From a virus (taxonomy: Duplodnaviria > Heunggongvirae > Uroviricota > Caudoviricetes), in the IMG/VR virus record IMGVR_UViG_2534681936_000011: a stretch of 47,026 bases of DNA; one strand, written 5' to 3'. The translations under genes were made by a program, and so were the position numbers. This document shows positions 1,575 to 26,340 of the stretch, one piece after another (within the stretch, counting starts at the first letter, position 1; every line of letters starts with the position of its first letter). The notes beneath the pieces were generated by a model. It was given only the letters and a program-made list of their open reading frames with translations, was not told the DNA's origin and did not search any database.

Positions 1575-4046
1575 TTAAAAATCAGCCTGATTCGGGAGCA
1601 GTTTTTGCCAGATAGTTGAAACGTATTTTGCCTGGTAACGGGCATCATCCAGCGCATTGTGGCGCTCACCTTCGAATGGGATAGCAGTTCTGGCATCGAA
1701 GTCTACGGCTTTCCCCAGCTCAACGATTGTGCGTACATCGCGATCGTTGCAGTAGCGCCACGGGCAGGGGATACCCTGTCGTTCGTATGAACGGCGCAAA
1801 ATAGTGTTGTCGAAGTTGGCCCCATTACCCCAGACCTGAACAAAAAACTCACCGGAGTTTTCGTCGATAAATTCCCGCAATTGCAGTAGTGCATCATCTA
1901 ACGGGATTTCATCGGTCATAATGGCAGACTGCGCTTCACGTGATTGCTTCAGCCACCATTTAATGACGTCACGATCAATGACTCCGCCAGCAGTATCCAG
2001 ATCGATGGTCTTGCTAAATTCTGGTCCCATATCTCCGGTTTGCGGATCGAAAAATATTGCGCCTATTGAGATAATCGGGGCATCGGGATTTTTTCCCATG
2101 GTTTCAAGGTCGATCATCAGATGAATCCCCGCTCTGCTGGTGGATGTGAGATTATGATGACTGTTCGCCTTAATTAAGGGATCTGACGCCTCGCCAGTTT
2201 CACTATCGCTGGCATGATGCTGATTGCCGCCAGTGTTCTCCTTGTGCTGATGTGCAGTACCTTCCATTTCCTCCGGATCATTTTCCTGAACTTCAGGCTG
2301 ATTCTCTTCATCGAATATTTCCTGGTATGTTGCGTCGCCCATCACCGCGCCACAATCAGGGCAGTTGCCGCCGCCGGTCTGACCGCAGGCGGTGCAGACT
2401 TTTTCCACTTCCTGTTGCGCCACTGGTTCAGGCTGTTTCGTTTCTGGCTCGTTTTGTAACGCATTTGGGCTGTTTTGTTCCGCTTTCTGGTCGTTCTGTT
2501 CCGTTTCTTGCTGGTTCTGGTTCACAGAATCGCGGGTTTCAATCCCCTTCACCCATTTCGGATCATTCGGGTCGCTAATCCCTGCAACAAATTCACCACG
2601 TGATGCGGCGAGCAACTGATTGGCGTCAGGCTGGCTGATATTGGCTGCCTGCATAATTTTCTTTACTTCGTCAGCGGTAACTTTTACCGGTTCTGGTTGT
2701 TCAGAATTTTGTGCGGTATTTGCATTTTGCGGTAAGCCTGTGTATGTGCCATTTTTTCGGGCAAAATATTCTTCTTTTGTGATTTCAGTAGCCCCGGCAG
2801 CCAGCGCCTTATCCAGACCAGAAAGTTTGTTTGCGCGACCGTATTTTTCGCAATCCTTGTCGGTGAAGAGGAAGTAGAACGGCCCCTCACGCTCTACAGA
2901 TGGTTCGACTTCCACTTTGCATTCGGTTTTTTCGTTGTCCGGAATTGCCGTTTCCACTGCATCAGTTTCTGGTACTGGCGACGAGAGAGTGTCAGTTGCG
3001 CTCTGATTTGTTCCTTCATCTTCAAACACGCCCTTTGTAGTCAGGTATTCAGTAATGTATTTGTTCAGTGCCACAGGGTCTTTGTGAATGTCGATCGGAC
3101 GTTCACGGACAAGGCCAAAAATAGTCTGGCGGTCGTAGCGAAGGGCATCAGGCTGTTTGCGCATTGATGCCGAGATACGCTTCCAGTCTTCGCGGTCGTT
3201 GTCGATAACTTCATTTTTTGCCCAGCGATGGATGCTGCCGTCAATGTTTCCGGCATCCACATCACCAGGCCAGAGAGCGTAGGCCAGTTCGTCATCCAGT
3301 GTTTTCCATGTCTGCTTATATTCGCGACGAATGACTGCAGTGACAGGGGGGATTTTTTCTGCTGAGTTTTCAGTGTGCTGTCGGTGGACTCTGGCGCGGG
3401 CGAGATCAACAACAGACGTGTATTTTCCGGTTTCCTTGCGTTCACCTTCGCGACGTTTTTTCCAGATGCGCATTTCTGCCTGAATTTCGGGCCATTTGGC
3501 ACCAGGCTTACATTTATGCTTAACCCACCCGATGGCATGCAGCTTAAGCTCCGGATACATGGCGTTAACTTCTGGCATTTTCATCAACGCTTCAACGATA
3601 TGTCCGTCGAATGTTGCCATGTCTTCCTGCAACAATTCCTGCGCGCTAATCACCATATCAACGGTGATGTTTTCACATGTGTCGAACTTAACCATGACAG
3701 CGTTCTGTACTTCAGGGGCCAGCTTGTCAAAAGCGACGTTCATCGGATCTGATTCAGTCTCAACCGGGACAAAGGAAGCAGCCCCCTCATCCCAGCGGTT
3801 TTCCTGCATATATTCAGCATCCCAGGAATCGAGGGCAGGGCGGGGTATACCGGGTTTATCCTCGCAAACAAGAAATTTATAAGCGCAGTCCTGAGCAGCC
3901 GGATAATGCTCCAGGAATTGCCAGTGAAATTTTGCGCGGGCGCGACGTTCATCACCGGCTTCAATGGCAGTGGCTACAGCGACTGCACCTTCTTCCTTTA
4001 TTGCCTGTTCGTCCGGAATGGCGGCGCAAATAAAGACTTTACTCAT
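1575..4046 (-). CDS. Large phage exonuclease with C-terminal DnaQ-like DEDDh 3'-5' exonuclease domain
   Basis: 823 aa; C-terminal motifs MIDLETMG (Exo I) and HNALDDA (Exo III); central acidic Q/E-rich linker and a CxxC...CxxC zinc-ribbon-like motif (CTACGQTGGGNCPDCG). Sits where Qin ydfE lies; no recT/bet partner nearby. Confidence 0.7.
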   Translation of the reverse strand: MSKVFICAAIPDEQAIKEEGAVAVATAIEAGDERRARAKFHWQFLEHYPAAQDCAYKFLVCEDKPGIPRPALDSWDAEYMQENRWDEGAASFVPVETESDPMNVAFDKLAPEVQNAVMVKFDTCENITVDMVISAQELLQEDMATFDGHIVEALMKMPEVNAMYPELKLHAIGWVKHKCKPGAKWPEIQAEMRIWKKRREGERKETGKYTSVVDLARARVHRQHTENSAEKIPPVTAVIRREYKQTWKTLDDELAYALWPGDVDAGNIDGSIHRWAKNEVIDNDREDWKRISASMRKQPDALRYDRQTIFGLVRERPIDIHKDPVALNKYITEYLTTKGVFEDEGTNQSATDTLSSPVPETDAVETAIPDNEKTECKVEVEPSVEREGPFYFLFTDKDCEKYGRANKLSGLDKALAAGATEITKEEYFARKNGTYTGLPQNANTAQNSEQPEPVKVTADEVKKIMQAANISQPDANQLLAASRGEFVAGISDPNDPKWVKGIETRDSVNQNQQETEQNDQKAEQNSPNALQNEPETKQPEPVAQQEVEKVCTACGQTGGGNCPDCGAVMGDATYQEIFDEENQPEVQENDPEEMEGTAHQHKENTGGNQHHASDSETGEASDPLIKANSHHNLTSTSRAGIHLMIDLETMGKNPDAPIISIGAIFFDPQTGDMGPEFSKTIDLDTAGGVIDRDVIKWWLKQSREAQSAIMTDEIPLDDALLQLREFIDENSGEFFVQVWGNGANFDNTILRRSYERQGIPCPWRYCNDRDVRTIVELGKAVDFDARTAIPFEGERHNALDDARYQAKYVSTIWQKLLPNQADF

Positions 4047-4138: not shown

Positions 4139-4330
4139 TTAAAGACCTGCCGGGATTTCGTTATTATCCTGGTGAATAACTTTATCGACCGGGTAACAGT
4201 TACCGGGAATTTTCTGTTCGGTTGCTGCAGTCACACACTCCTGCATTGTCCTGTGAACACTGACTGCAATATCAACTGGCTCTCCGGAAACAAGAAAAAC
4301 TGTCAGAACAAGTGCAAATGCTGTATTCAT
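4139..4330 (-). CDS. ydfD: YdfD-like small protein with N-terminal hydrophobic segment
   Basis: 63 aa from an ATG overlapping the upstream stop (ATGA); MNTAFALVLTVFLVSGEP...; length and position match YdfD after dicB. Confidence 0.55.
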   Translation of the reverse strand: MNTAFALVLTVFLVSGEPVDIAVSVHRTMQECVTAATEQKIPGNCYPVDKVIHQDNNEIPAGL

Positions 4331-4515
4331 TGCCAGCATCCTTTTTGTATCGGACGTAAACGGGCCAGCATTGAAAGAATGCATATTTTATTTAATAACT
4401 CCCGTTCGTGTTTTCTCTTGTTAATGGCATCTTCAGTAAATACAGGGTTACTGATAGTGACACCAATTTCAAAACAACCTTCAGACGTATTAACGTTTGG
4501 TAATAACGTTTCCAT
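4327..4515 (-). CDS. dicB: Cell-division inhibitor DicB-like protein
   Basis: 62 aa: METLLPNVNTSEGCFEIGVTISNPVFTEDAINKRKHERELLNKICILSMLARLRPIQKGCWQ, near-identical to the recalled DicB sequence; immediately downstream of the DicF-like element. Confidence 0.7.
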   Translation of the reverse strand: METLLPNVNTSEGCFEIGVTISNPVFTEDAINKRKHERELLNKICILSMLARLRPIQKGCWQ

Positions 4516-4684
4516 TATCGCGTCCTCAACAATGAATTTTGTGATGCGGTGCCTGGTGCCTCCAGGTGACGTTAACCAGTTAACAATTAACGCCGGATAC
4601 AGTGAATCCCCCCATAACACTGTTTTTAGCTTTAACTGTTCCGCGTGCGCTTAGCCGCATTCACTGCATCACAAAATTCACTTT

Positions 4685-4740
4685 AAAAAGGGCGGACATC
4701 AGTTCATGGGCAAACAGATGCCGCCAAACGTCACCAGAAA
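4685..4740 (-). ncRNA. dicF: DicF-like small regulatory RNA
   Basis: Minus strand reads TTTCTGGTGACGTTTGGCGGCATCTGTTTGCCCATGAACTGATGTCCGCCCTTTTT: conserved DicF 5' seed, then a GGCGG...CCGCC hairpin and T5. Lies between the upstream ORFs and dicB as in the dicB operon. Confidence 0.7.
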
Positions 4741-5073
4741 ATTGATAACAGAGGGCGTTGCAGCGGGGTTGTCACTTAAGCGTATGGTCAACCTGACAAC
4801 CCGGTGTCCTCAACGGGGAAGGAATAACCCCGCCATACTTACCGCTGCGCCATTTCGCGGAGTGCCACAACCGGAAGCGCACGGTCGACGAAAATTTAAC
4901 GACAGGCTATCTATGAACCAGCAACCTCGCCGTGCGCTTTCGCGTTATGCTCTGACTTTTCAGAGAAATATCCTTTCAGTAAACTGTCAGTGCCGGATGT
5001 TCACCCGTGTCCGGCGCACGCACTCCACTTCACCCGTGGAGAACTCCTTAATTACCAACCCTCAGGAGGGTGA

Positions 5074-5307
5074 ATGTTAAAATCAACTCTTATTGCTAAA
5101 TGCCTTTATCAAAATCGCATGGTAAGCAGCATTTCAATAGGCGAGTCTGCAGTTAAAAGTATTTTCGAAGAGTACTTTCCCGGGCATGATTTTAATAAAT
5201 GGAATACCAAATTACCGCCAGCAGTTTCAACGCGTATTCTGAAAGCAACCGAAAGAGCAAGTACAATTCGCGTTAACTATTTCATTAAAGATTTGTGGGA
5301 TCTTTGA
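5074..5307 (+). CDS. Hypothetical 77-aa protein, opposite in orientation to the early-left operon
   Basis: ATG with strong SD (AGGAGGgtgaATG); AT-rich coding sequence; 3' end overlaps the convergent 135-aa ORF by 23 bp. Confidence 0.4.
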   Translation: MLKSTLIAKCLYQNRMVSSISIGESAVKSIFEEYFPGHDFNKWNTKLPPAVSTRILKATERASTIRVNYFIKDLWDL

Positions 5308-5692
5308 TATCCACAGAGCCTAAAGTATGTGCATATGGATGTGCTATTATGCGCCCTCGCAGATTTGCATCATTTTCTAAATTCACTGAACGAAACAGGG
5401 CATCAACAAGGCTCTGTACAATGCAAAGGCAATCGAAGACTGTCGCCGTTTCTGTTTTGATTGATGAAAGAACATGGCCATTCACGCAAACAGAAATTAC
5501 CCGTTTATTAACATCGCTTTCCTGCTTTTGATTATCAGAACCATATAGCCCAGAAAAAGCATTGCGCACATTACGAACCATATTATCGATGGTTTCTTTT
5601 TCTGCGGTACTAAGGTCAAGAGTAGCCAGTTGTGAACGAACTATATTCGATGCCATTTCCTGTAATGGCGTTGGTAAATCTTTAAATTCCAT
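5285..5692 (-). CDS. Hypothetical early-left protein (135 aa)
   Basis: ORF with GAGG SD 8 nt upstream; no recognisable family. Confidence 0.5.
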   Translation of the reverse strand: MEFKDLPTPLQEMASNIVRSQLATLDLSTAEKETIDNMVRNVRNAFSGLYGSDNQKQESDVNKRVISVCVNGHVLSSIKTETATVFDCLCIVQSLVDALFRSVNLENDANLRGRIIAHPYAHTLGSVDIKDPTNL

Positions 5693-5714
5693 TATTAGCC
5701 TCGTTGGTTAGCTA

Positions 5715-5933
5715 TTAACGTGGGTATGTAATCATTCTGGCAATGCTTAATGCCGCTGCTTTTTCCAGATTGGTGATATCCTGCTCCAGAGCGGACAGAT
5801 TTTCAGCCTGCTTAGCCCTGGCTTCATTGGCCCATTTCAGGTCCTGCACCGCCTTAATTTTCTGGTGCATCCACTCATAAAGTTCATCATCGGTATAGTC
5901 TGGCGCGATGATGACGGGGTCTCGTTTCTGCAT
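5715..5933 (-). CDS. Hypothetical early-left protein (72 aa, coiled-coil-like)
   Basis: ORF in operon context between dicA and dicF; length matches the YdfC slot. Confidence 0.45.
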   Translation of the reverse strand: MQKRDPVIIAPDYTDDELYEWMHQKIKAVQDLKWANEARAKQAENLSALEQDITNLEKAAALSIARMITYPR

Positions 5934-6005
5934 GTCGGCTCCTTGTGGTTAGCGTTGCCTGCTTTTTAACCACATCAGGCGAGGTGGTATCCTCTGAGGG
6001 GTCTG

Positions 6006-6362
6006 TTACTCGAGAGGAAATTGGTTATGAATACAATCAAGTTTTCTTGCCCAGAATGTGGTGGCTAAGTCTTTGACACATCCTTTAAGCCGCAGGGCTC
6101 TGACAGTTTCGCGGGAGCCATCTGCAAAAATTGTGGTCACCTTGTAACTGAAGATGAGTCCTCGCAGTTCGATGACGAAATCGTTGACAATATCTTCGGT
6201 GCACTCACCAGAGACTTTCTGAAGTAAAGGCGCATACCGCTTAGTTACCGCTCTGATAACTCTTACCTGTCCGGCAATGGCGCTGATATCAATATAAAGC
6301 GCCATCGCTGTTTCTTTGCTGATCCCTGGACGCCTTCCATTCTGATGTTTGACTTCGCCCAC
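6006..6362 (-). CDS. Hypothetical early-left protein (up to 118 aa; start uncertain)
   Basis: First ORF downstream of the repressor on the same strand. Confidence 0.4.
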   Translation of the reverse strand: MGEVKHQNGRRPGISKETAMALYIDISAIAGQVRVIRAVTKRYAPLLQKVSGECTEDIVNDFVIELRGLIFSYKVTTIFADGSRETVRALRLKGCVKDLATTFWARKLDCIHNQFPLE

Positions 6363-6569
6363 TGAGAAATCCTCTGCTTCCCCTTAACGCCGGGTAGCGG
6401 AACTGTTTGCTGAGAACACCGTGCGGTGTCTTGATGAGTAGAATTTAGAATAGCCTAAGAGTTATGGTCAAGCTTTTTGTGTAGAAAAACCTAAGCTTCT
6501 TGATGTAAAAAACACAAGTATTTGAAAGTTTGTGCTTTTTATTACAGAGAGTTGCGAAAAAAAGGGGGG

Positions 6570-6977
6570 TTATTTATTTGCGCTTCTTTTGCGAGCTTTG
6601 AGTAGTTCTTCAAAAAGTTTGTTGAAATTCTCAACTCGAGCACGCATCTCTGACAACAGAGCCTTTTGCTCTGACTCAGGCAGTGCGTCGAACAGTTGAA
6701 GCAACTCTTTTTGATCTTCTGTCAGATTGACTGGCTGATTATCTGGGATCGGTTCGCCTGGTTGCTTATCTTCATCTCCAAAAAGAAGCCAAGTCGGCGA
6801 GCACTGAAGCGCCTGGCTCAGTGCGAATAATCTCTTCCCCGCTGGCTGTGTTTCATCTCTTTCCCATTGAGAAATTGTTACGTGAGCCACTTTGACCAGC
6901 TTACCTAATGCGGCCTGAGACAGTTTTAATTTTTTTCGCCTGTATAAGAGGCGAGCACCGAAGGTTTCGTTTTTCAT
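6570..6977 (-). CDS. dicA: DicA-like HTH (XRE-family) prophage repressor
   Basis: 135 aa; MKNETFGARLLYRRKKLKLSQAALGKLVKVAHVTISQWERDE... HTH; length and C-terminus (FNKLFEELLKARKR) match recalled DicA; divergent from a cro-like gene. Confidence 0.85.
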   Translation of the reverse strand: MKNETFGARLLYRRKKLKLSQAALGKLVKVAHVTISQWERDETQPAGKRLFALSQALQCSPTWLLFGDEDKQPGEPIPDNQPVNLTEDQKELLQLFDALPESEQKALLSEMRARVENFNKLFEELLKARKRSANK

Positions 6978-7053: not shown

Positions 7054-7281
7054 ATGTTGAAAATTGATGCTATAGCGTTTTTTGGCAGCAAAACAAAGCT
7101 TGCCAATGTCGCAGGAGTTAGGCTGGCAAGCGTTGCTGCATGGGGGGAACTGGTTCCTGAAGGTCGCGCGATGCGCCTGCAAGAGGCATCCGGCGGGGAA
7201 CTTCAGTACGACCCCAAAGTTTATGACGAATATCGTAAGGCAAAGCGGGCGGGGCGGTTGAACAATGAAAATCACCACTGA
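7054..7281 (+). CDS. dicC: DicC-like (Cro-like) regulator
   Basis: 75 aa; MLKIDAIAFFGSKTKLANVAGVRLASVAAWGELVPEGRAM...; divergent from dicA. Confidence 0.75.
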   Translation: MLKIDAIAFFGSKTKLANVAGVRLASVAAWGELVPEGRAMRLQEASGGELQYDPKVYDEYRKAKRAGRLNNENHH

Positions 7282-10909: not shown

Positions 10910-11668
10910 ATGAGGAACATAATGGCAGGTTTTTTAATATTCCTGTCTTCTGCTGCTTATGCTGATATCAATCTGTATGGTCCTGGTGGCCCGCATACAG
11001 CCTTGCTTGATGCAGCCAAACTTTATGCCGAAAAAACAGGTATTATAGTGAACGTTCATTACGGCCCACAGAACAAATGGAATGAAGATGCCAAAAAAAA
11101 TGCAGATATCTTGTTTGGCGCATCAGAACAATCTGCTCTGGCTATCATTCGGGACCATAAAGACAGCTTCAGTGAAAAAGATATTCAGCCTCTTTATCTG
11201 CGAAAAAGTATTTTACTGGTAAAGAAAGGTAATCCTAAAAATATCCGGAGTATTGACGACCTGACCAGACCTGGGATTGGCGTAATTGTTAATGATGGTG
11301 GTGGTACCAGTAATACATCAGGCACTGGCGTCTGGGAAGATATTGCCGGACGTAAAGGGAATATAGAAACTGTCGCCGCAATCCGAAAAAATATTATTTT
11401 ATATGCGCCCAATAGCGGAACTGCACGTAAGGCTCTTGAGAATCAGCCTGGAGCAGATGTCTGGATAACCTGGGCTGACTGGGCAGCCAGTAATCCAGAA
11501 ATTGGTGATGTCGTGGAAATAGCGCCAGACTACGTGATATGGCGTGATATGAACATTACAGTACGTCAGGATGCAAATGATGAAACCCGTCGATTTGCAG
11601 AATGGCTACAAACCGATGAAGCGGCGCCTGCATTCAAAAAATATGGCTGGACCAGGAAAGGCACTTGA
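10910..11668 (+). CDS. Orphan periplasmic solute-binding protein (ModA-like fold) with signal peptide
   Basis: 252 aa; AAGGAG SD; signal peptide MAGFLIFLSSAAYA; C-terminus ...AAPAFKKYGWTRKGT patterns like the ModA-type end (...AAEIFKRYGFTIK); AT-rich flanks; no transporter partners. Confidence 0.55.
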   Translation: MRNIMAGFLIFLSSAAYADINLYGPGGPHTALLDAAKLYAEKTGIIVNVHYGPQNKWNEDAKKNADILFGASEQSALAIIRDHKDSFSEKDIQPLYLRKSILLVKKGNPKNIRSIDDLTRPGIGVIVNDGGGTSNTSGTGVWEDIAGRKGNIETVAAIRKNIILYAPNSGTARKALENQPGADVWITWADWAASNPEIGDVVEIAPDYVIWRDMNITVRQDANDETRRFAEWLQTDEAAPAFKKYGWTRKGT

Positions 11669-11811: not shown

Positions 11812-12003
11812 GCGAAAACGGTTTGCTGTAACGGCAGAGTTAAGTAGGATTGCTGCGGGTGCTTGAGGCTATCTGCCTCGGGCATGAACACCAACGGCAG
11901 ATAGATAAAAGCCCCACCCGACTATAAATCGAAGTGAGGCCCCTATATGCTCGTCACATATAGATTGCCTCTTACGGACCGAAAGGTCAAGGAGAAGCAG
12001 GCT

Positions 12004-12159
12004 ATGAAGCAGCAAAAGGCGATGTTAATCGCCCTGATCGTCATCTGTTTAACCGTCATAGTGACGGCACTGGTAACGAGGAAAGACCTCTGCGAGGTAC
12101 GAATCCGAACCGGCCAGACGGAGGTCGCTGTCTTCACAGCTTACGAACCTGAGGAGTAA
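12004..12159 (+). CDS. hok: Hok/Gef-family type I toxin
   Basis: 51 aa MKQQKAMLIALIVICLTVIVTALVTRKDLCEVRIRTGQTEVAVFTAYEPEE, a canonical Hok sequence; an in-frame upstream extension (from 11947) occupies the mok position. Confidence 0.8.
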   Translation: MKQQKAMLIALIVICLTVIVTALVTRKDLCEVRIRTGQTEVAVFTAYEPEE

Positions 12160-15290: not shown

Positions 15291-15366
15291 GGCCCTTTAG
15301 CTCAGTGGTGAGAGCGAGCGACTCATAATCGCCAGGTCGCTGGTTCAAATCCAGCAAGGGCCACCA
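15291..15366 (+). tRNA. ileZ: tRNA-Ile (anticodon CAU, lysidine type, ileZ-like)
   Basis: Cloverleaf: acceptor GGCCCTT/AAGGGCC, D-arm GCTC...GAGC, anticodon loop CTCATAA, T-loop TTCAAAT, CCA end; close to the recalled E. coli ileX sequence. Confidence 0.85.
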
Positions 15367-15367
15367 A

Positions 15368-15443
15368 CCGCCACTAGCCATCAGGAAAGAGCGTCAACCC
15401 TTTAAGTTGAGTGTGCGAGGTTCGAGTCCCCGGTGGTGGTCCA
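15368..15443 (+). tRNA. tRNA-like element with degenerate D-arm; anticodon uncertain
   Basis: Acceptor CCGCCAC/GTGGTGG (one G-U), T-arm CGAGG-TTCGAGT-CCCCG, CCA end, anticodon stem TCAAC/GTTGA; loop CCTTTAA has C at position 33 and the D-stem is weak. Confidence 0.4.
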
Positions 15444-15456
15444 TTATCGGTATTCT

Positions 15457-15533
15457 GCGTTGTTAGCTCAGCAGGACAGAGCAATTGCCTTCTAAGCAAT
15501 CGGTCACTGGTTCGACTCCAGTACAACGCGCTA
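15457..15533 (+). tRNA. argO: tRNA-Arg (anticodon UCU, argO-like)
   Basis: Acceptor GCGTTGT/ACAACGC, D-arm TAGCTCAGCAGGACAGAGC, anticodon loop CTTCTAA, T-arm ACTGG-TTCGACT-CCAGT. Confidence 0.8.
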
Positions 15534-16299: not shown

Positions 16300-16613
16300 T
16301 TTTTTTGTTTGCTGTTTATTAAAAACACTTCTGCATGGTGAATCCCCCTGTGCGGTGGGGCAATCAGCAAGAAGGAATATGGGGTAATCGCGGATTCAGG
16401 TGCTGATACTGAATTCACCGGGAGGCACCCGGCACCATGCTTTGCCACAAAAGTGTTATTTCTGTTTTTCTCAAACTATCATCGTTATCCCTTTATTTTC
16501 GGCTGCGCATGGCGCGGCCTTTTTTTTACGACCAGCCACTGGCAGATGGTCATCCTGTGATTTGATTCCGCTTCCGGCTTTTTAACTCTGTTCCTCTACA
16601 CGGGAGAAATTCG

Positions 16614-18464
16614 ATGTCGATTAAACATTACGATGTTATCAGGGCGGCGTCGCCGTCAGACCTTGCGGAAAAGCTGACACACAAACTGAAAGAGGGCTGG
16701 CAGCCATACGGCGGACCGGTTGCCATTACGCCGTACACACTGATGCAGGCGGTGGCTATTGAAGGAGAGCCACAGGTCGGCCCTTCATCTGAGCCGGATT
16801 GGTACTACGTCATCGTACTGGCCGGGCAGTCCAATGCAATGGCTTACGGTGAAGGGCTTCCGCTGCCGGATTCATACGATGCTCCGGATCCGCGCATTAA
16901 ACAGCTGGCGCGCCGCAGTACAGTGACGCCGGGTGGGGCTGCCTGCAGATATAACGATATTATTCCGGCTGACCACTGTCTGCATGATGTGCAGGATATG
17001 AGTACGCTGAATCATCCGAGGGCTGACCTGAGCAAAGGGCAGTACGGCTGTGTCGGTCAGGGTTTACATATTGCCAAAAAACTGCTCCCGTATATCCCGA
17101 ATAACGCGGGGATCCTGCTGGTACCATGCTGTCGTGGTGGTTCGGCATTTACCCAGGGCGCGGAGGGGACATTCAGCGAGTCCACGGGGGCCAGTCAGGA
17201 TTCGGCACGCTGGGGGGTGGGCAAGCCGTTATATCAGGATCTGATTTCCCGCACAAAAGCGGCATTGCAGAAAAATCCCAAAAACGTTCTGCTGGCCGTC
17301 TGCTGGATGCAGGGTGAGTTTGACATGAGCGCCGCCACCCACGCACAGCAACCTGCGCTGTTTACAGCCATGCTGACACAGTTTCGTGCTGACCTCTCCG
17401 TGTTTAACGCGCAGTGCCATGGTGGCAGTGCTGCAGATGTGCCGTGGGTTTGTGGTGACACGACGTATTACTGGAAAAATACATACGCTACCCAGTACGA
17501 CACCGTGTACGGCGGGTATAAAAACAGGGAGAGTGAGGGCGTTTATTTTGTGCCCTTCATGACAGACGGTAACGGCGTCAATACCGCCACTAACGCGCCG
17601 GCAGAAGATCCGGATATTCCGGCATCAGGATATTACGGTGCGGCATCGAGAACGAATGGAAACCAGGTATCATCAAACCGCCCGACACATTTCAGTTCAT
17701 GGGCGCGCAGGAGCATTATTCCGGATCGTCTGGCAACCGCTATTCTGAACGCAGCCGGGCGCACCTCAGCCTTCATCAGTGGTAAGGCACCGGAAATCAA
17801 ACCCTCGCCCGGCGGCAACACGCCATCGGGTCCGTCTGCAGATACGTCCGTTCGCACAATCTCCCTGCTGCCGGCAGCCGGAGAGGCTGCTGCGCAGGGC
17901 TGGAGCATTAAGGATGGCGGAATTCAGTTGTCAGATGGTGTATTTAAGATCACCAAGCAGAGCAATAAAACCTGGTCCCTGACGCATCCGGTGGATGACG
18001 CAATTACCCTGCTGACACAGGGCGGCAGACTGACCTGTAAGTTCCGCCTGTCAGGCGCACTGACCAACAATCAGTTCGGGCTGGGGATTTATCTGTATAC
18101 GGATGCTCCCGTTCCTGATGGTGTGGCGATGACGGGTACCGGTAATCCGTTCCTGATGTCGTACTTCACTCAGACCACTGACGGCAGAGTGAATCTGATG
18201 CATCACAGGAAAGCCGGAAACACGAAGCTGGGGGAGTTCGGCGATTACGGTAACGACTGGCAGACGCTGGAGCTGGTGTTCACCGCCGGCAGTGCCACGG
18301 TTACTCCGAAACTGAATGGAGTGGCTGGCCCGGCATTCCAGGTTATAAAAGACAGTCTGACACTGGGACTGAATGCGCTGACGCTGACGGATGTTACAAA
18401 AAATGCAGCGTATGGCGTTGAGATAGAAAGTCTGATGCTGGAGATAAATGCACCGGCAGCATAA
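16614..18464 (+). CDS. nanS-p: NanS-p-like sialate O-acetylesterase (N-terminal DUF1737, SASA-like esterase, C-terminal domain)
   Basis: 616 aa; N-terminus MSIKHYDVIRAASPSDLAEKL; esterase motif region LAGQSNAMAYGEG; same position as the esterase downstream of stx in Stx phages. Confidence 0.7.
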   Translation: MSIKHYDVIRAASPSDLAEKLTHKLKEGWQPYGGPVAITPYTLMQAVAIEGEPQVGPSSEPDWYYVIVLAGQSNAMAYGEGLPLPDSYDAPDPRIKQLARRSTVTPGGAACRYNDIIPADHCLHDVQDMSTLNHPRADLSKGQYGCVGQGLHIAKKLLPYIPNNAGILLVPCCRGGSAFTQGAEGTFSESTGASQDSARWGVGKPLYQDLISRTKAALQKNPKNVLLAVCWMQGEFDMSAATHAQQPALFTAMLTQFRADLSVFNAQCHGGSAADVPWVCGDTTYYWKNTYATQYDTVYGGYKNRESEGVYFVPFMTDGNGVNTATNAPAEDPDIPASGYYGAASRTNGNQVSSNRPTHFSSWARRSIIPDRLATAILNAAGRTSAFISGKAPEIKPSPGGNTPSGPSADTSVRTISLLPAAGEAAAQGWSIKDGGIQLSDGVFKITKQSNKTWSLTHPVDDAITLLTQGGRLTCKFRLSGALTNNQFGLGIYLYTDAPVPDGVAMTGTGNPFLMSYFTQTTDGRVNLMHHRKAGNTKLGEFGDYGNDWQTLELVFTAGSATVTPKLNGVAGPAFQVIKDSLTLGLNALTLTDVTKNAAYGVEIESLMLEINAPAA

Positions 18465-20078: not shown

Positions 20079-20543
20079 TGTTTTGTTATGAAGATGTTAC
20101 TGGTAACATTAAGGTAATTTAACAAAGAGTCAGTTCCGGACTTTATAGTGTGCTCAGTTCATGGCCAAAAACGATTTCTGTGATAAATATTTTGAATATT
20201 ATTTACAGGTAAATGGAGTGGGGCGCATGGATAGAAATATTACAATAGAGTATGAAGTATATGCCCGTATTGTATGGGCAGAGAAGGCAAAAACACGGTA
20301 AATCCGTGTGTTGCCATGATACCTGATTGGCAGAATAGTTGTTTGGTTTTGAGTATATAGTCAGCGTTTTTTGTTCAGTAATTGCCCCCTCAAAAAATAA
20401 TAAAATAAGGTGATTATTTTTGTTTATTATTTAGTTTTTTTTGTGTGTTATTTTATTGTTTTTGCGTGGTTTGTTTTTTATTGTTATTTCATTAAGGGAA
20501 GGTAAATTCAGGATGGCAGTCTGTAGATAATCGGAGGTCACTT

Positions 20544-20858
20544 ATGCTACATGATCACGTGGCAGAATGTCTGGAGAAAAAAGGACTGTACCGGAGAGCA
20601 GCTGAACGATGGGCAAAAGTGATGGTACAGCTAAGTGATGACCAGAAAAGAAAAGTGGCGGCACAGAAACGAGCAGAGTGTTTGCGTAAGGCGCGCCGGA
20701 CTCCGGTTTCACCGGTGAACCTGACCGAAATAAAACAAGCGGTCAACAGACTACATTCTGAGTTGGGAATGGGATTTGAAGAGCGGCGGGTATTCCGACG
20801 ATATAAAGGGACAGGAGAACAGAATACGTCCGGAAACGCGCGGTCAAAAAAATGCTAA
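20544..20858 (+). CDS. pch: PerC-family transcriptional activator (Pch-like)
   Basis: 104 aa; GGAGG SD; LEKKGLYRRAAERW matches the PerC family motif (LEATGLWRRAAARW); preceded by about 450 bp of T-rich, AT-rich DNA. Confidence 0.6.
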   Translation: MLHDHVAECLEKKGLYRRAAERWAKVMVQLSDDQKRKVAAQKRAECLRKARRTPVSPVNLTEIKQAVNRLHSELGMGFEERRVFRRYKGTGEQNTSGNARSKKC

Positions 20859-26118: not shown

Positions 26119-26340
26119 ATGGCAAAAATCCGATATCTGCAGGGTACACATGATGCCCGGCCCGGGGATATCCGGGATGTCGCACAGCCGTGTGCGGAGG
26201 TGCTGGTTCGCCTGGGAAAGGCGGAGTACATCACAGCGCGACGTCCGGCGGGTCAGAAAAAGAAACATGATGCGGAGCATAGCGAATGTGGAACCTTTTG
26301 CGACGAACCCGAAAAAACCAGAAATCAGGACGTGATGTAA
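26119..26340 (+). CDS. Small hypothetical ORF between capsid and portal genes
   Basis: 73-aa ORF overlapping the portal start; weak RBS. Confidence 0.25.
   Translation: MAKIRYLQGTHDARPGDIRDVAQPCAEVLVRLGKAEYITARRPAGQKKKHDAEHSECGTFCDEPEKTRNQDVM

What the first reader, a model, noticed from the sequence alone, without database searches (positions are those of the whole stretch)
4685..4740. DicF-like sRNA with dicB and ydfD homologs in the early-left operon
The minus strand carries a near-canonical DicF seed (UUUCUGGUGACGUUUGGCGG) followed by a terminator hairpin, directly upstream of a 62-aa DicB-like ORF and a 63-aa YdfD-like ORF. This is the dicB-operon arrangement of Qin, but here inside a prophage that also keeps int/xis and full morphogenesis genes. 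DicF targets ftsZ and other host mRNAs, so it is a host-manipulation module. The terminator loop differs from the recalled K-12 copy, so targets may differ.
Basis: partly seen in the sequence, partly recalled or inferred. Interest (0 to 1): 0.5.

Follow-up and report, generated by a model that had tools for sequence, protein, structure and literature searches.

The report
Divergent DicF small-RNA allele in prophage
This is a real copy of the prophage small RNA DicF sitting upstream of dicB and ydfD, but the part of the RNA that normally silences the cell-division gene ftsZ has been rewritten, so it probably acts on other targets and is missed by standard RNA annotation.

Summary
Window 4685-4740 (-) encodes a 51-nt DicF-type RNA plus a U5 tail. 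Its first 20 nt are identical to K-12 DicF. It lies upstream of dicB (62 aa) and ydfD (63 aa), in the leftward operon of an ompW-integrated lambdoid prophage of the O55:H7/O157:H7 type.

It is a distinct allele, which I call B. About 260 nt upstream and 180 nt downstream are 96% identical to K-12 Qin. The 25-nt hairpin interior differs at 10 of 28 aligned columns (Fisher p = 3e-7). The Rfam DicF score is 43.5 bits, below the gathering score of 48; K-12 scores 76.7.

The changed segment is the experimentally mapped ftsZ, manX and pykA pairing region. Predicted pairing of allele B to all three is no better than shuffled controls. The xylR-type 5' seed pairing is unchanged.

Allele B is 100% conserved in 290 of 5426 complete E. 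coli genomes, occurs in several different flank contexts, and is present in E. albertii. A third, short allele (C) also exists. No A/B intermediates were seen.

The prophage keeps int and xis, but its portal gene is frameshifted and tail gene J is truncated by an IS.

Verdict: a known system carrying a probably undescribed allele whose target-recognition region has been replaced. Interest is moderate.

The parts
4685..4740 (-). dicF allele B: a 51-nt DicF-type sRNA (4740->4690) plus a U5 tail (4689-4685).
   Evidence: Sequence. RF00039 hit 4690-4739 at 43.5 bits, E = 5e-8. The ends are anchored on the curated K-12 dicF. Fold.
4721..4740 (-). 5' single-stranded seed, nt 1-20 (UUUCUGGUGACGUUUGGCGG), identical to K-12. 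nt 5-17 give 13 contiguous base pairs with xylR +8..+20.
   Evidence: dG -20.3, reached by 0 of 300 shuffles. The dicF3 mutation (G6G7U8 to CCA) abolishes xylR regulation in K-12.
4696..4720 (-). Rewritten hairpin interior, nt 21-45 (CAUCUGUUUGCCCAUGAACUGAUGU). It replaces the K-12 ftsZ/manX/pykA pairing segment UAUCAGUUUUACUCCGUGACUGCUCUG.
   Evidence: 10 of 28 columns differ, against 17 of 460 in the flanks; p = 3e-7. Loss of predicted pairing.
4691..4725 (-). Terminator-type hairpin. The base GGCGG/CCGCC is shared by alleles A, B and C. The inner stems are CAUC/GAUG and GUUU/GAAC, with loop GCCCAU.
4741..5000 (-). Conserved non-coding leader upstream of dicF. In K-12 this region carries the RNase III and RNase E processing sites. 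It is about 97% identical to Qin.
   Evidence: Alignments. Processing in K-12 is described in the paper read.
4516..4684 (-). dicF-dicB spacer, conserved across alleles. It contains the hairpin CACCUGGAGGCACCAGGCAC and gives a sub-threshold STnc100-like match.
   Evidence: 32-34 bits against a gathering score of 47.
4327..4515 (-). dicB, 62 aa.
   Evidence: Pfam PF05358 at 127 bits. 89% identical to K-12 DicB. RefSeq annotation.
4139..4330 (-). ydfD (DUF1482), 63 aa; its start overlaps the dicB stop.
   Evidence: PF07358 at 88 bits. 94% identical to K-12 YdfD.
1575..4046 (-). 823-aa exonuclease with a C-terminal Rv2179c-like 3'-5' exonuclease domain. It is the intact counterpart of the ydfE pseudogene of Qin.
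5285..6305 (-). Upstream ORFs of the operon: a 99-aa ORF (6006-6305), ydfC (5715-5933) and a 135-aa ORF (5285-5692). They replace ydfA and ydfB of Qin.
   Evidence: No Pfam hits.
6570..6977 (-). DicA-like HTH repressor, 135 aa.
   Evidence: HTH_3 and Phage_CI_repr hits. 63% identical to DicA.
7054..7281 (+). DicC/P22-Cro-like regulator, divergent from the repressor gene.
   Evidence: PF14549 P22_Cro at 49.7 bits.
6442..6471 (-). Candidate sigma-70 promoter (TTGACC-18-TAAATT) in the repressor-to-first-ORF gap. Possible dicBp/PL equivalent; a consensus match only.
   Evidence: The number of such matches in the region is not above shuffles.

Best explanation
This is an orthologous but divergent allele ('B') of the prophage sRNA gene dicF, in the dicBF operon of a defective lambdoid prophage integrated at ompW. 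By analogy with K-12, the operon is transcribed leftward from a promoter repressed by the DicA-like repressor. The RNA is then released by RNase E cleavage at the conserved UCAAU|UUUCUGG junction and by termination at its own hairpin plus U tail, which would also serve as the Hfq-binding module. These biogenesis steps are inferred, not shown. The 5' single-stranded seed is unchanged, so 5'-seed targets such as xylR should still be regulated. The hairpin interior has been rewritten at the positions that K-12 DicF needs to pair with the ftsZ ribosome-binding site, manX and pykA. This allele is therefore predicted not to block FtsZ synthesis. Any division inhibition from this operon would come from DicB. 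Allele B either has a reduced target set or has new, unidentified targets.
For: Homology and synteny: 20 of 20 seed identity and flanks 96% identical to Qin over about 440 nt. The DicF model matches at E = 5e-8. dicB and ydfD lie immediately downstream. Local rewriting: 10 of 28 columns differ in the interior against 17 of 460 in the flanks, p = 3e-7. The closest A-allele loci differ from the window at only 6 of 400 upstream and 5 of 400 downstream positions. Functional mapping from the literature: the 3' region of DicF pairs with ftsZ. The dicF9 mutation (C32U33C34 to GAG, primer O-DB408) abolishes ftsZ repression, and dicF21 (U30A31C32) and dicF23 (G36C) impair it. The 5' mutation dicF3 does not affect ftsZ. 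manX also uses the 3' end. Allele B changes A31, deletes U33 and changes G36. Pairing predictions: in co-folding with ftsZ -70..+45, allele A gives ddG -12.9 with 37 intermolecular pairs covering the SD and AUG; allele B gives -4.2, and 92% of shuffled-interior controls do at least as well. For the 3' module alone, A against B gives ftsZ -27.9 / -17.0, manX -37.2 / -23.2 and pykA -26.4 / -18.7 kcal/mol. A is reached by 1% or fewer of shuffles; B is reached by 74%, 24% and 15%. xylR pairing by the shared seed is -20.3, reached by 0 of 300 shuffles. Selection on B: the allele-specific 42-mer is 100% identical in 290 of 5426 complete genomes. B is also invariant across at least four different flank contexts, some with 16-23% divergence in the adjacent 200 nt, and in the E. 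albertii type strain. No A/B intermediates appear among about 300 loci.
Against: No expression or processing data exist for this copy. Pairing energies are predictions, and unconstrained full-length duplex energies do not single out even the validated A-ftsZ pair. Residual complementarity to ftsZ remains: nt 5-20 with +10..+25, and CCGCC with -25..-28. Conservation of the 5' seed alone is not evidence of selection, because the whole roughly 500-nt non-coding block is equally conserved. I could not read Melson & Kendall 2019, so the pchA pairing site and the identity of their four EHEC copies remain unknown to me.
Confidence: 0.65

Rival explanations
1. This is a canonical DicF that still represses ftsZ. 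The hairpin differences would be neutral, and repression would work through the remaining complementarity or through Hfq recruitment.
For: Identical 5' 20 nt and hairpin base. Residual pairing of nt 5-20 with ftsZ +10..+25 and of CCGCC with -25..-28. DicF can act by recruiting Hfq rather than by occluding the RBS, as on manX.
Against: In K-12 a 3-nt change in the loop (dicF9) is enough to abolish ftsZ repression, and the 5' region is dispensable. Allele B alters that motif and 7 other columns. Its net ftsZ binding is no better than shuffled interiors.
Confidence: 0.15
2. This copy is only a cis element: an intra-operon terminator or attenuator and processing site that sets the dicB/ydfD level. 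It would have no trans-acting role, and the interior could drift freely as long as a hairpin forms.
For: All three alleles keep the GGCGG/CCGCC base, a stable stem and a U tail at the same position upstream of dicB, while their interiors differ. In K-12, transcripts extending past dicF were not detected.
Against: Free drift predicts many interior variants and intermediates. Instead there are three discrete classes, each nearly invariant across divergent flanks. The first 10 nt, UUUCUGGUGA, lie outside the hairpin and are invariant in all classes.
Confidence: 0.15
3. The match is chance or an annotation artefact and not a DicF relative, because it fails Rfam's gathering score.
For: 43.5 bits against a threshold of 48. 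The hit is absent from the gathering scan.
Against: E = 5e-8. The match covers the model end to end. The copy sits at the orthologous position inside a roughly 500-nt block that is 96% identical to the K-12 dicF locus.
Confidence: 0.01

Closest known systems
DicF of the Qin cryptic prophage, E. coli K-12 (Rfam RF00039; b1574)
   Same: Orthologous position between ydfC and dicB in a DicA-controlled operon. Identical nt 1-20. The same hairpin base and U tail. Near-identical upstream leader and downstream spacer.
   Different: The hairpin interior (nt 21-45) is rewritten by 6 substitutions and 4 indels. The loop is 6 nt instead of about 9-11, and the stem is more regular (-17.3 against -15.9 kcal/mol). 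The anti-SD motif ACUCCG and the ACUGCUCUGC segment used for ftsZ, pykA and manX are gone. The model score is 43.5 against 76.7 bits.
Multi-copy dicF/dicBF loci of EHEC O157:H7 (Balasubramanian 2016; Melson & Kendall 2019, 'four copies')
   Same: Same lineage and the same type of prophage. In EDL933 the identical allele lies at NZ_CP008957.1 1,847,320 (-), in the ompW-proximal half of the CP-933O region. Strain 86-24 also carries it.
   Different: Published surveys used copies more than 99% identical to K-12 or Rfam hits. The four Rfam entries for EDL933 have lengths of 52, 52, 56 and 52 nt, and their positions fit the A-type copies. Allele B, which gives a 50-nt hit, is therefore probably an uncounted extra copy. 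This is an inference, not verified against the primary paper.
Short dicF allele 'C' (UUUCUGGUGAUUCGGCGG-AAAUGGAUAU-CCGCC-U5)
   Same: Same locus upstream of dicB, the same first 10 nt, and the same hairpin base and tail.
   Different: C is 34 nt plus the tail with a bare 8-10-nt loop. It is found in 442 of 5426 genomes and is not detected by the DicF model at all.
Processed 3'-UTR or intra-operon Hfq sRNAs with a conserved seed and a variable remainder (for example SdhX)
   Same: Derived from an mRNA by termination plus RNase E processing. A short conserved seed lies next to a fast-evolving segment.
   Different: In DicF the variable segment is itself a second target-recognition module embedded in the terminator hairpin, and it occurs as discrete alleles rather than as a continuum.

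Membership tests
DicF sRNA (Rfam RF00039) | Covariance-model score at or above the curated gathering score of 48 bits. | tested here: not met
   43.5 bits, E = 5e-8. No hit in the gathering scan. K-12 scores 76.7.
DicF sRNA (Rfam RF00039) | Orthologous genomic position: downstream of ydfC and upstream of dicB-ydfD in a DicA/DicC-type immunity region. | tested here: met
DicF sRNA (Rfam RF00039) | Single-stranded 5' seed UUUCUGGUGAC(G/A/U)UUUGGCGG. | tested here: met
   20 of 20 identical to K-12. Unpaired in the minimum-free-energy structure.
DicF sRNA (Rfam RF00039) | Rho-independent terminator hairpin plus U tail forming the 3' end and Hfq module. | tested here: met
   13-bp hairpin of -17.3 kcal/mol followed by U5. 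The simple consensus scan missed it because of a bulge and a mismatch.
DicF sRNA (Rfam RF00039) | Antisense complementarity of the 3' region or loop to the ftsZ ribosome-binding site (the founding function). | tested here: not met
   The nucleotides corresponding to dicF9, dicF21 and dicF23 are altered. This is a computational test only.
DicF sRNA (Rfam RF00039) | [quoted passage not shown] | not testable with these tools
   The processing region is about 97% identical to K-12. No transcript data are available.
DicB (Pfam PF05358) | Full-length match above the gathering score. | tested here: met
   127.4 bits against 27, residues 1-62 of 62. 89% identical to K-12 DicB.
YdfD / DUF1482 (Pfam PF07358) | Full-length match above the gathering score. 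| tested here: met
   88 bits against 25. 94% identical to K-12 YdfD.

The most novel reading that the evidence does not exclude
dicF exists as discrete, individually conserved 'hairpin cassettes' (A, B and C). They share one 5' seed and one terminator base but carry different second target-recognition modules. Allele B would be a naturally retargeted DicF that no longer recognises ftsZ, with its own as yet unknown targets. Together with C it would be an uncounted fifth or sixth DicF-like sRNA in O157:H7, so published 'delta-dicF1-4' strains may not be DicF-seed-null.
Probability: 0.35. Interest if true: 0.6.

Novelty: new variant of a known kind. Interest (0 to 1): 0.4.

Why it matters
DicF is the textbook prophage sRNA that blocks cell division, and in EHEC it has been linked to virulence control. 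If a conserved allele keeps the seed but has lost the ftsZ, manX and pykA module, three things follow. First, the several dicF copies in one EHEC genome are not functionally redundant. Second, Rfam-based annotation and copy counts ('four copies') undercount the family. Third, a terminator hairpin interior can act as an exchangeable target-recognition cassette, which is a clear natural case of modular sRNA retargeting and can be tested with simple reporter fusions.

Tried and rejected
1. Full-length RNAduplex-type scans of alleles A, B and C against the whole window and the dcw cluster. Energies are dominated by composition (mean -31, sd 6.7), and even the validated A-ftsZ duplex (-38.5) is not an outlier, so I dropped this measure. 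I used co-folding and module-specific duplexes with shuffles instead.

2. A possible allele B-specific target in the same prophage. The loop UUUGCCCAU has a perfect 9-mer complement in the PerC/Pch-family gene (20609), but three such 9-mers occur in the window and the energy is not above shuffles. A 13-nt complement lies in the SASA/NanS-p-like esterase CDS (17692-17704). Its chance expectation is about 0.02, but allele A also has a chance 12-mer, so I treat it as borderline. An 11-mer at 20154 overlaps an ATG that has no SD.

3. Reading Melson & Kendall 2019 and Murashko & Lin-Chao 2017: neither is held.

4. The old EDL933 record NC_002655.2 is not in the collection. I mapped copies on NZ_CP008957.1 instead.

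5. About half of the 18-specified-base (19-nt) seed pattern hits in genome contigs were chance matches in unrelated MAGs.

6. The absence of RefSeq PGAP annotation is uninformative, because dicF is unannotated even in K-12-like PGAP records.

7. A genome-wide target search for allele B was not possible, because no whole genome is available to the scripts.

Full report
**1. What is in the sequence**

On the minus strand, 4740->4685 reads UUUCUGGUGACGUUUGGCGG CAUCUGUUUGCCCAUGAACUGAUGU CCGCCC UUUUU.

- The curated K-12 dicF (NC_000913.3 1649382-1649434, 53 nt) begins with the same 20 nt and ends with the same CCGCCC.
- The RNA folds with nt 1-15 unpaired and a 13-bp hairpin of -17.3 kcal/mol (z = -2.4). 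The K-12 RNA folds at -15.9.
- The Rfam DicF model matches 4690-4739 (-) over its full length at 43.5 bits, E = 5e-8. This is below the gathering score of 48, so the gathering scan of the window does not report it. K-12 scores 76.7 bits.
- Downstream lie dicB (4327-4515, Pfam DicB 127 bits, 89% identical to K-12) and ydfD (4139-4330, DUF1482 88 bits, 94% identical). An 823-aa exonuclease follows.
- Upstream lie a 135-aa ORF, ydfC and a 99-aa ORF. Beyond them is a DicA-like repressor (63% identical to DicA), divergent from a P22-Cro/DicC-like gene.

**2. Where the window comes from**

The window is 99.5% identical to the ompW-integrated prophage of E. coli O55:H7 RM12579. The same early region is present in O157:H7, including EDL933. 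The prophage has int, xis, a replication module, paa, hok/sok, Q, tRNAs, lysis genes and a PerC/Pch-family gene. It also has head and tail genes. However, the portal is split by a 1-nt frameshift relative to the intact EDL933 gene, and tail-tip gene J is truncated at 39585 by an IS element. The prophage is therefore large but defective.

**3. The allele is distinct**

- Aligned with K-12 Qin, the 260 nt upstream (plus the seed) and the 180 nt downstream differ at 17 of 460 positions.
- The 25-27-nt hairpin interior differs at 10 of 28 columns: 6 substitutions and 4 single-base indels. Fisher p = 3e-7.
- Some A-type (K-12-type) loci have flanks that differ from the window at only 6 of 400 and 5 of 400 positions.
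- About 300 loci were collected from IMG/VR, GTDB genomes and RefSeq. The interior falls into three discrete classes with no intermediates:
  - A: the K-12 type, with only point variants.
  - B: this window.
  - C: a 34-nt short form with a bare loop.
- Each class stays invariant while the flanks diverge strongly. A-type loci show up to about 35-40% flank divergence. B is unchanged in at least four flank contexts, including contexts with 16-23% divergence in the adjacent 200 nt, one in which dicB is replaced by another gene, and the E. albertii type strain.
- In complete E. coli genomes, the A-specific 40-mer occurs in 3921 of 5426, the B-specific 42-mer in 290 (always 100% identical), and the C-specific 65-mer in 442. 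B is seen in O157:H7, O55:H7, O121 and O103, and in strain 86-24.

**4. What the changed segment does in K-12**

- Balasubramanian et al. 2016 showed that the 3' region of DicF pairs with the ftsZ RBS and with pykA, while the 5' end pairs with xylR.
- Their primers define the key mutations:
  - dicF9 is C32U33C34 to GAG and abolishes ftsZ repression.
  - dicF21 changes U30A31C32.
  - dicF23 is G36C.
  - dicF3 is G6G7U8 to CCA. It abolishes xylR regulation but not ftsZ regulation.
- Azam & Vanderpool 2018 mapped manX pairing to the 3' end as well.
- Allele B changes A31, deletes U33 and changes G36. It also replaces ACUGCUCUG with ACUGAUGU.

**5. Pairing predictions**

The ftsZ leader is identical in K-12 and O55:H7.

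- Co-folding with ftsZ -70..+45 gives a net -12.9 kcal/mol and 37 intermolecular pairs spanning -28..+25 for allele A.
- For allele B it gives -4.2 kcal/mol and 17 pairs. 92% of shuffled-interior controls do at least as well as B, and 2.5% do as well as A.
- Taking the 3' module alone:

| Target | Allele A (kcal/mol) | Shuffles reaching A | Allele B (kcal/mol) | Shuffles reaching B |
|---|---|---|---|---|
| ftsZ | -27.9 | 1% | -17.0 | 74% |
| manX | -37.2 | 0 of 300 | -23.2 | 24% |
| pykA | -26.4 | 0 of 300 | -18.7 | 15% |

- The shared 5' seed forms 13 contiguous pairs with xylR +8..+20, at -20.3 kcal/mol, reached by 0 of 300 shuffles.
- The best-supported reading is that allele B keeps the biogenesis signals and the 5' seed of DicF but has lost the ftsZ, manX and pykA recognition module. 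Whether it has acquired new targets is open. Candidate complementarities within the prophage (pch, and the SASA/NanS-p-like esterase gene) are at or near chance level.

**6. Relation to what is known**

- Multi-copy dicBF loci in EHEC prophages, including CP-933O, M and P, are published, and EHEC is said to have four dicF copies.
- In EDL933 (NZ_CP008957.1), allele B lies at 1,847,320 (-). An A-type copy lies 47 kb away at 1,894,338 (-), and the CP-933M copy is at 1,253,114.
- The four Rfam-derived EDL933 entries listed in PMC5331693 are 52, 52, 56 and 52 nt long, at 1.255, 1.881, 2.159 and 2.326 Mb in the old assembly. Allele B gives a 50-nt hit, and its position fits none of them under plausible assembly offsets. 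It is therefore probably not among the four.
- This is an inference. I could not read the primary EHEC paper.
- One O157:H7 genome (PV15-279) has five dicF-region places: two A-type, one B and two others.

**7. Verdict**

It is wrong, or at least unsupported, on ftsZ targeting for this copy, and it overstates prophage integrity. The system itself is known. The allele, with its target-recognition hairpin interior rewritten, conserved as a discrete class and invisible at Rfam's threshold, appears not to have been described in the literature I could search. It deserves a simple experimental test.

Noticed in passing
window 4496-4701 (-); also L002 3101-3310 and L182 2582-2799: The dicF-dicB spacer gives reproducible sub-threshold matches to Rfam STnc100 (32-34 bits; gathering score 47) in all three allele backgrounds. 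The matches centre on the conserved hairpin CACCUGGAGGCACCAGGCAC. A full STnc100 (100.8 bits) lies at 16304-16476 (+), after Q and the tRNAs.
   Followed up: partly
L182 2540-2580; 442 of 5426 E. coli genomes: A third, short dicF allele (UUUCUGGUGAUUCGGCGGAAAUGGAUAUCCGCCAUUUUU) sits at the same position upstream of dicB. The DicF covariance model does not detect it at all. O157:H7 genomes often carry A, B and C together.
   Followed up: partly
window 20544-20858 (+): A 104-aa PerC/Pch-family regulator gene with a very AT-rich leader is encoded in the same prophage. pchA is a published DicF target in EHEC. The shared 5' seed pairs at +150..+176 around an ACUCCGG motif (-20.2 kcal/mol), but 13% of shuffles do as well.
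   Followed up: partly
window 17692-17704 (+): A perfect 13-nt complement (UCAGUUCAUGGGC) to allele B nt 30-42 lies inside the SASA-family (NanS-p-like) esterase CDS of the late region. The chance expectation is about 0.02 per window, but allele A also has a chance 12-mer at 35501.
   Followed up: partly
window 26286-28870 (+) and 37685-40640: The portal gene is split into two overlapping ORFs by a 1-nt indel relative to the intact EDL933 portal. Tail-tip gene J is truncated at 39585, where an IS3-family element begins.
   Followed up: yes
window 40653-40775 (-): A full-length Rfam isrC match (150 bits) lies immediately upstream of the IS3-family transposase ORF (39594-40640, -). This suggests that the 'isrC' family corresponds to the leader of this IS.
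   Followed up: no
window 5074-5307 (+): A 77-aa ORF is annotated as hypothetical (WP_000920491.1). It lies antisense within the leftward operon and overlaps the 3' end of the 135-aa ORF (5285-5692, -) by 23 nt. It has no Pfam match and is absent from Qin.
   Followed up: no
window 11857-12159 (+); 10910-11668 (+); 15291-15530 (+): The prophage also carries a sok antisense RNA (103.9 bits) with hokD, the paa (AcfC-family adhesin) gene, and two tRNA genes downstream of Q, annotated tRNA-Ile and tRNA-Arg in the near-identical RM12579 region.
   Followed up: no
IMG/VR loci L236-L311: Within A-type alleles, position 12 of the 5' seed is polymorphic (G, A or U) at high frequency. This position lies inside the 13-bp xylR pairing stretch, so even the 'conserved' seed has functional variants.
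   Followed up: no
L185 (EDL933), L009, L126, L137: Some allele B loci carry an approximately 70-85-nt deletion in the conserved leader about 150 nt upstream of dicF. In K-12 that region contains the RNase III processing site.
   Followed up: no
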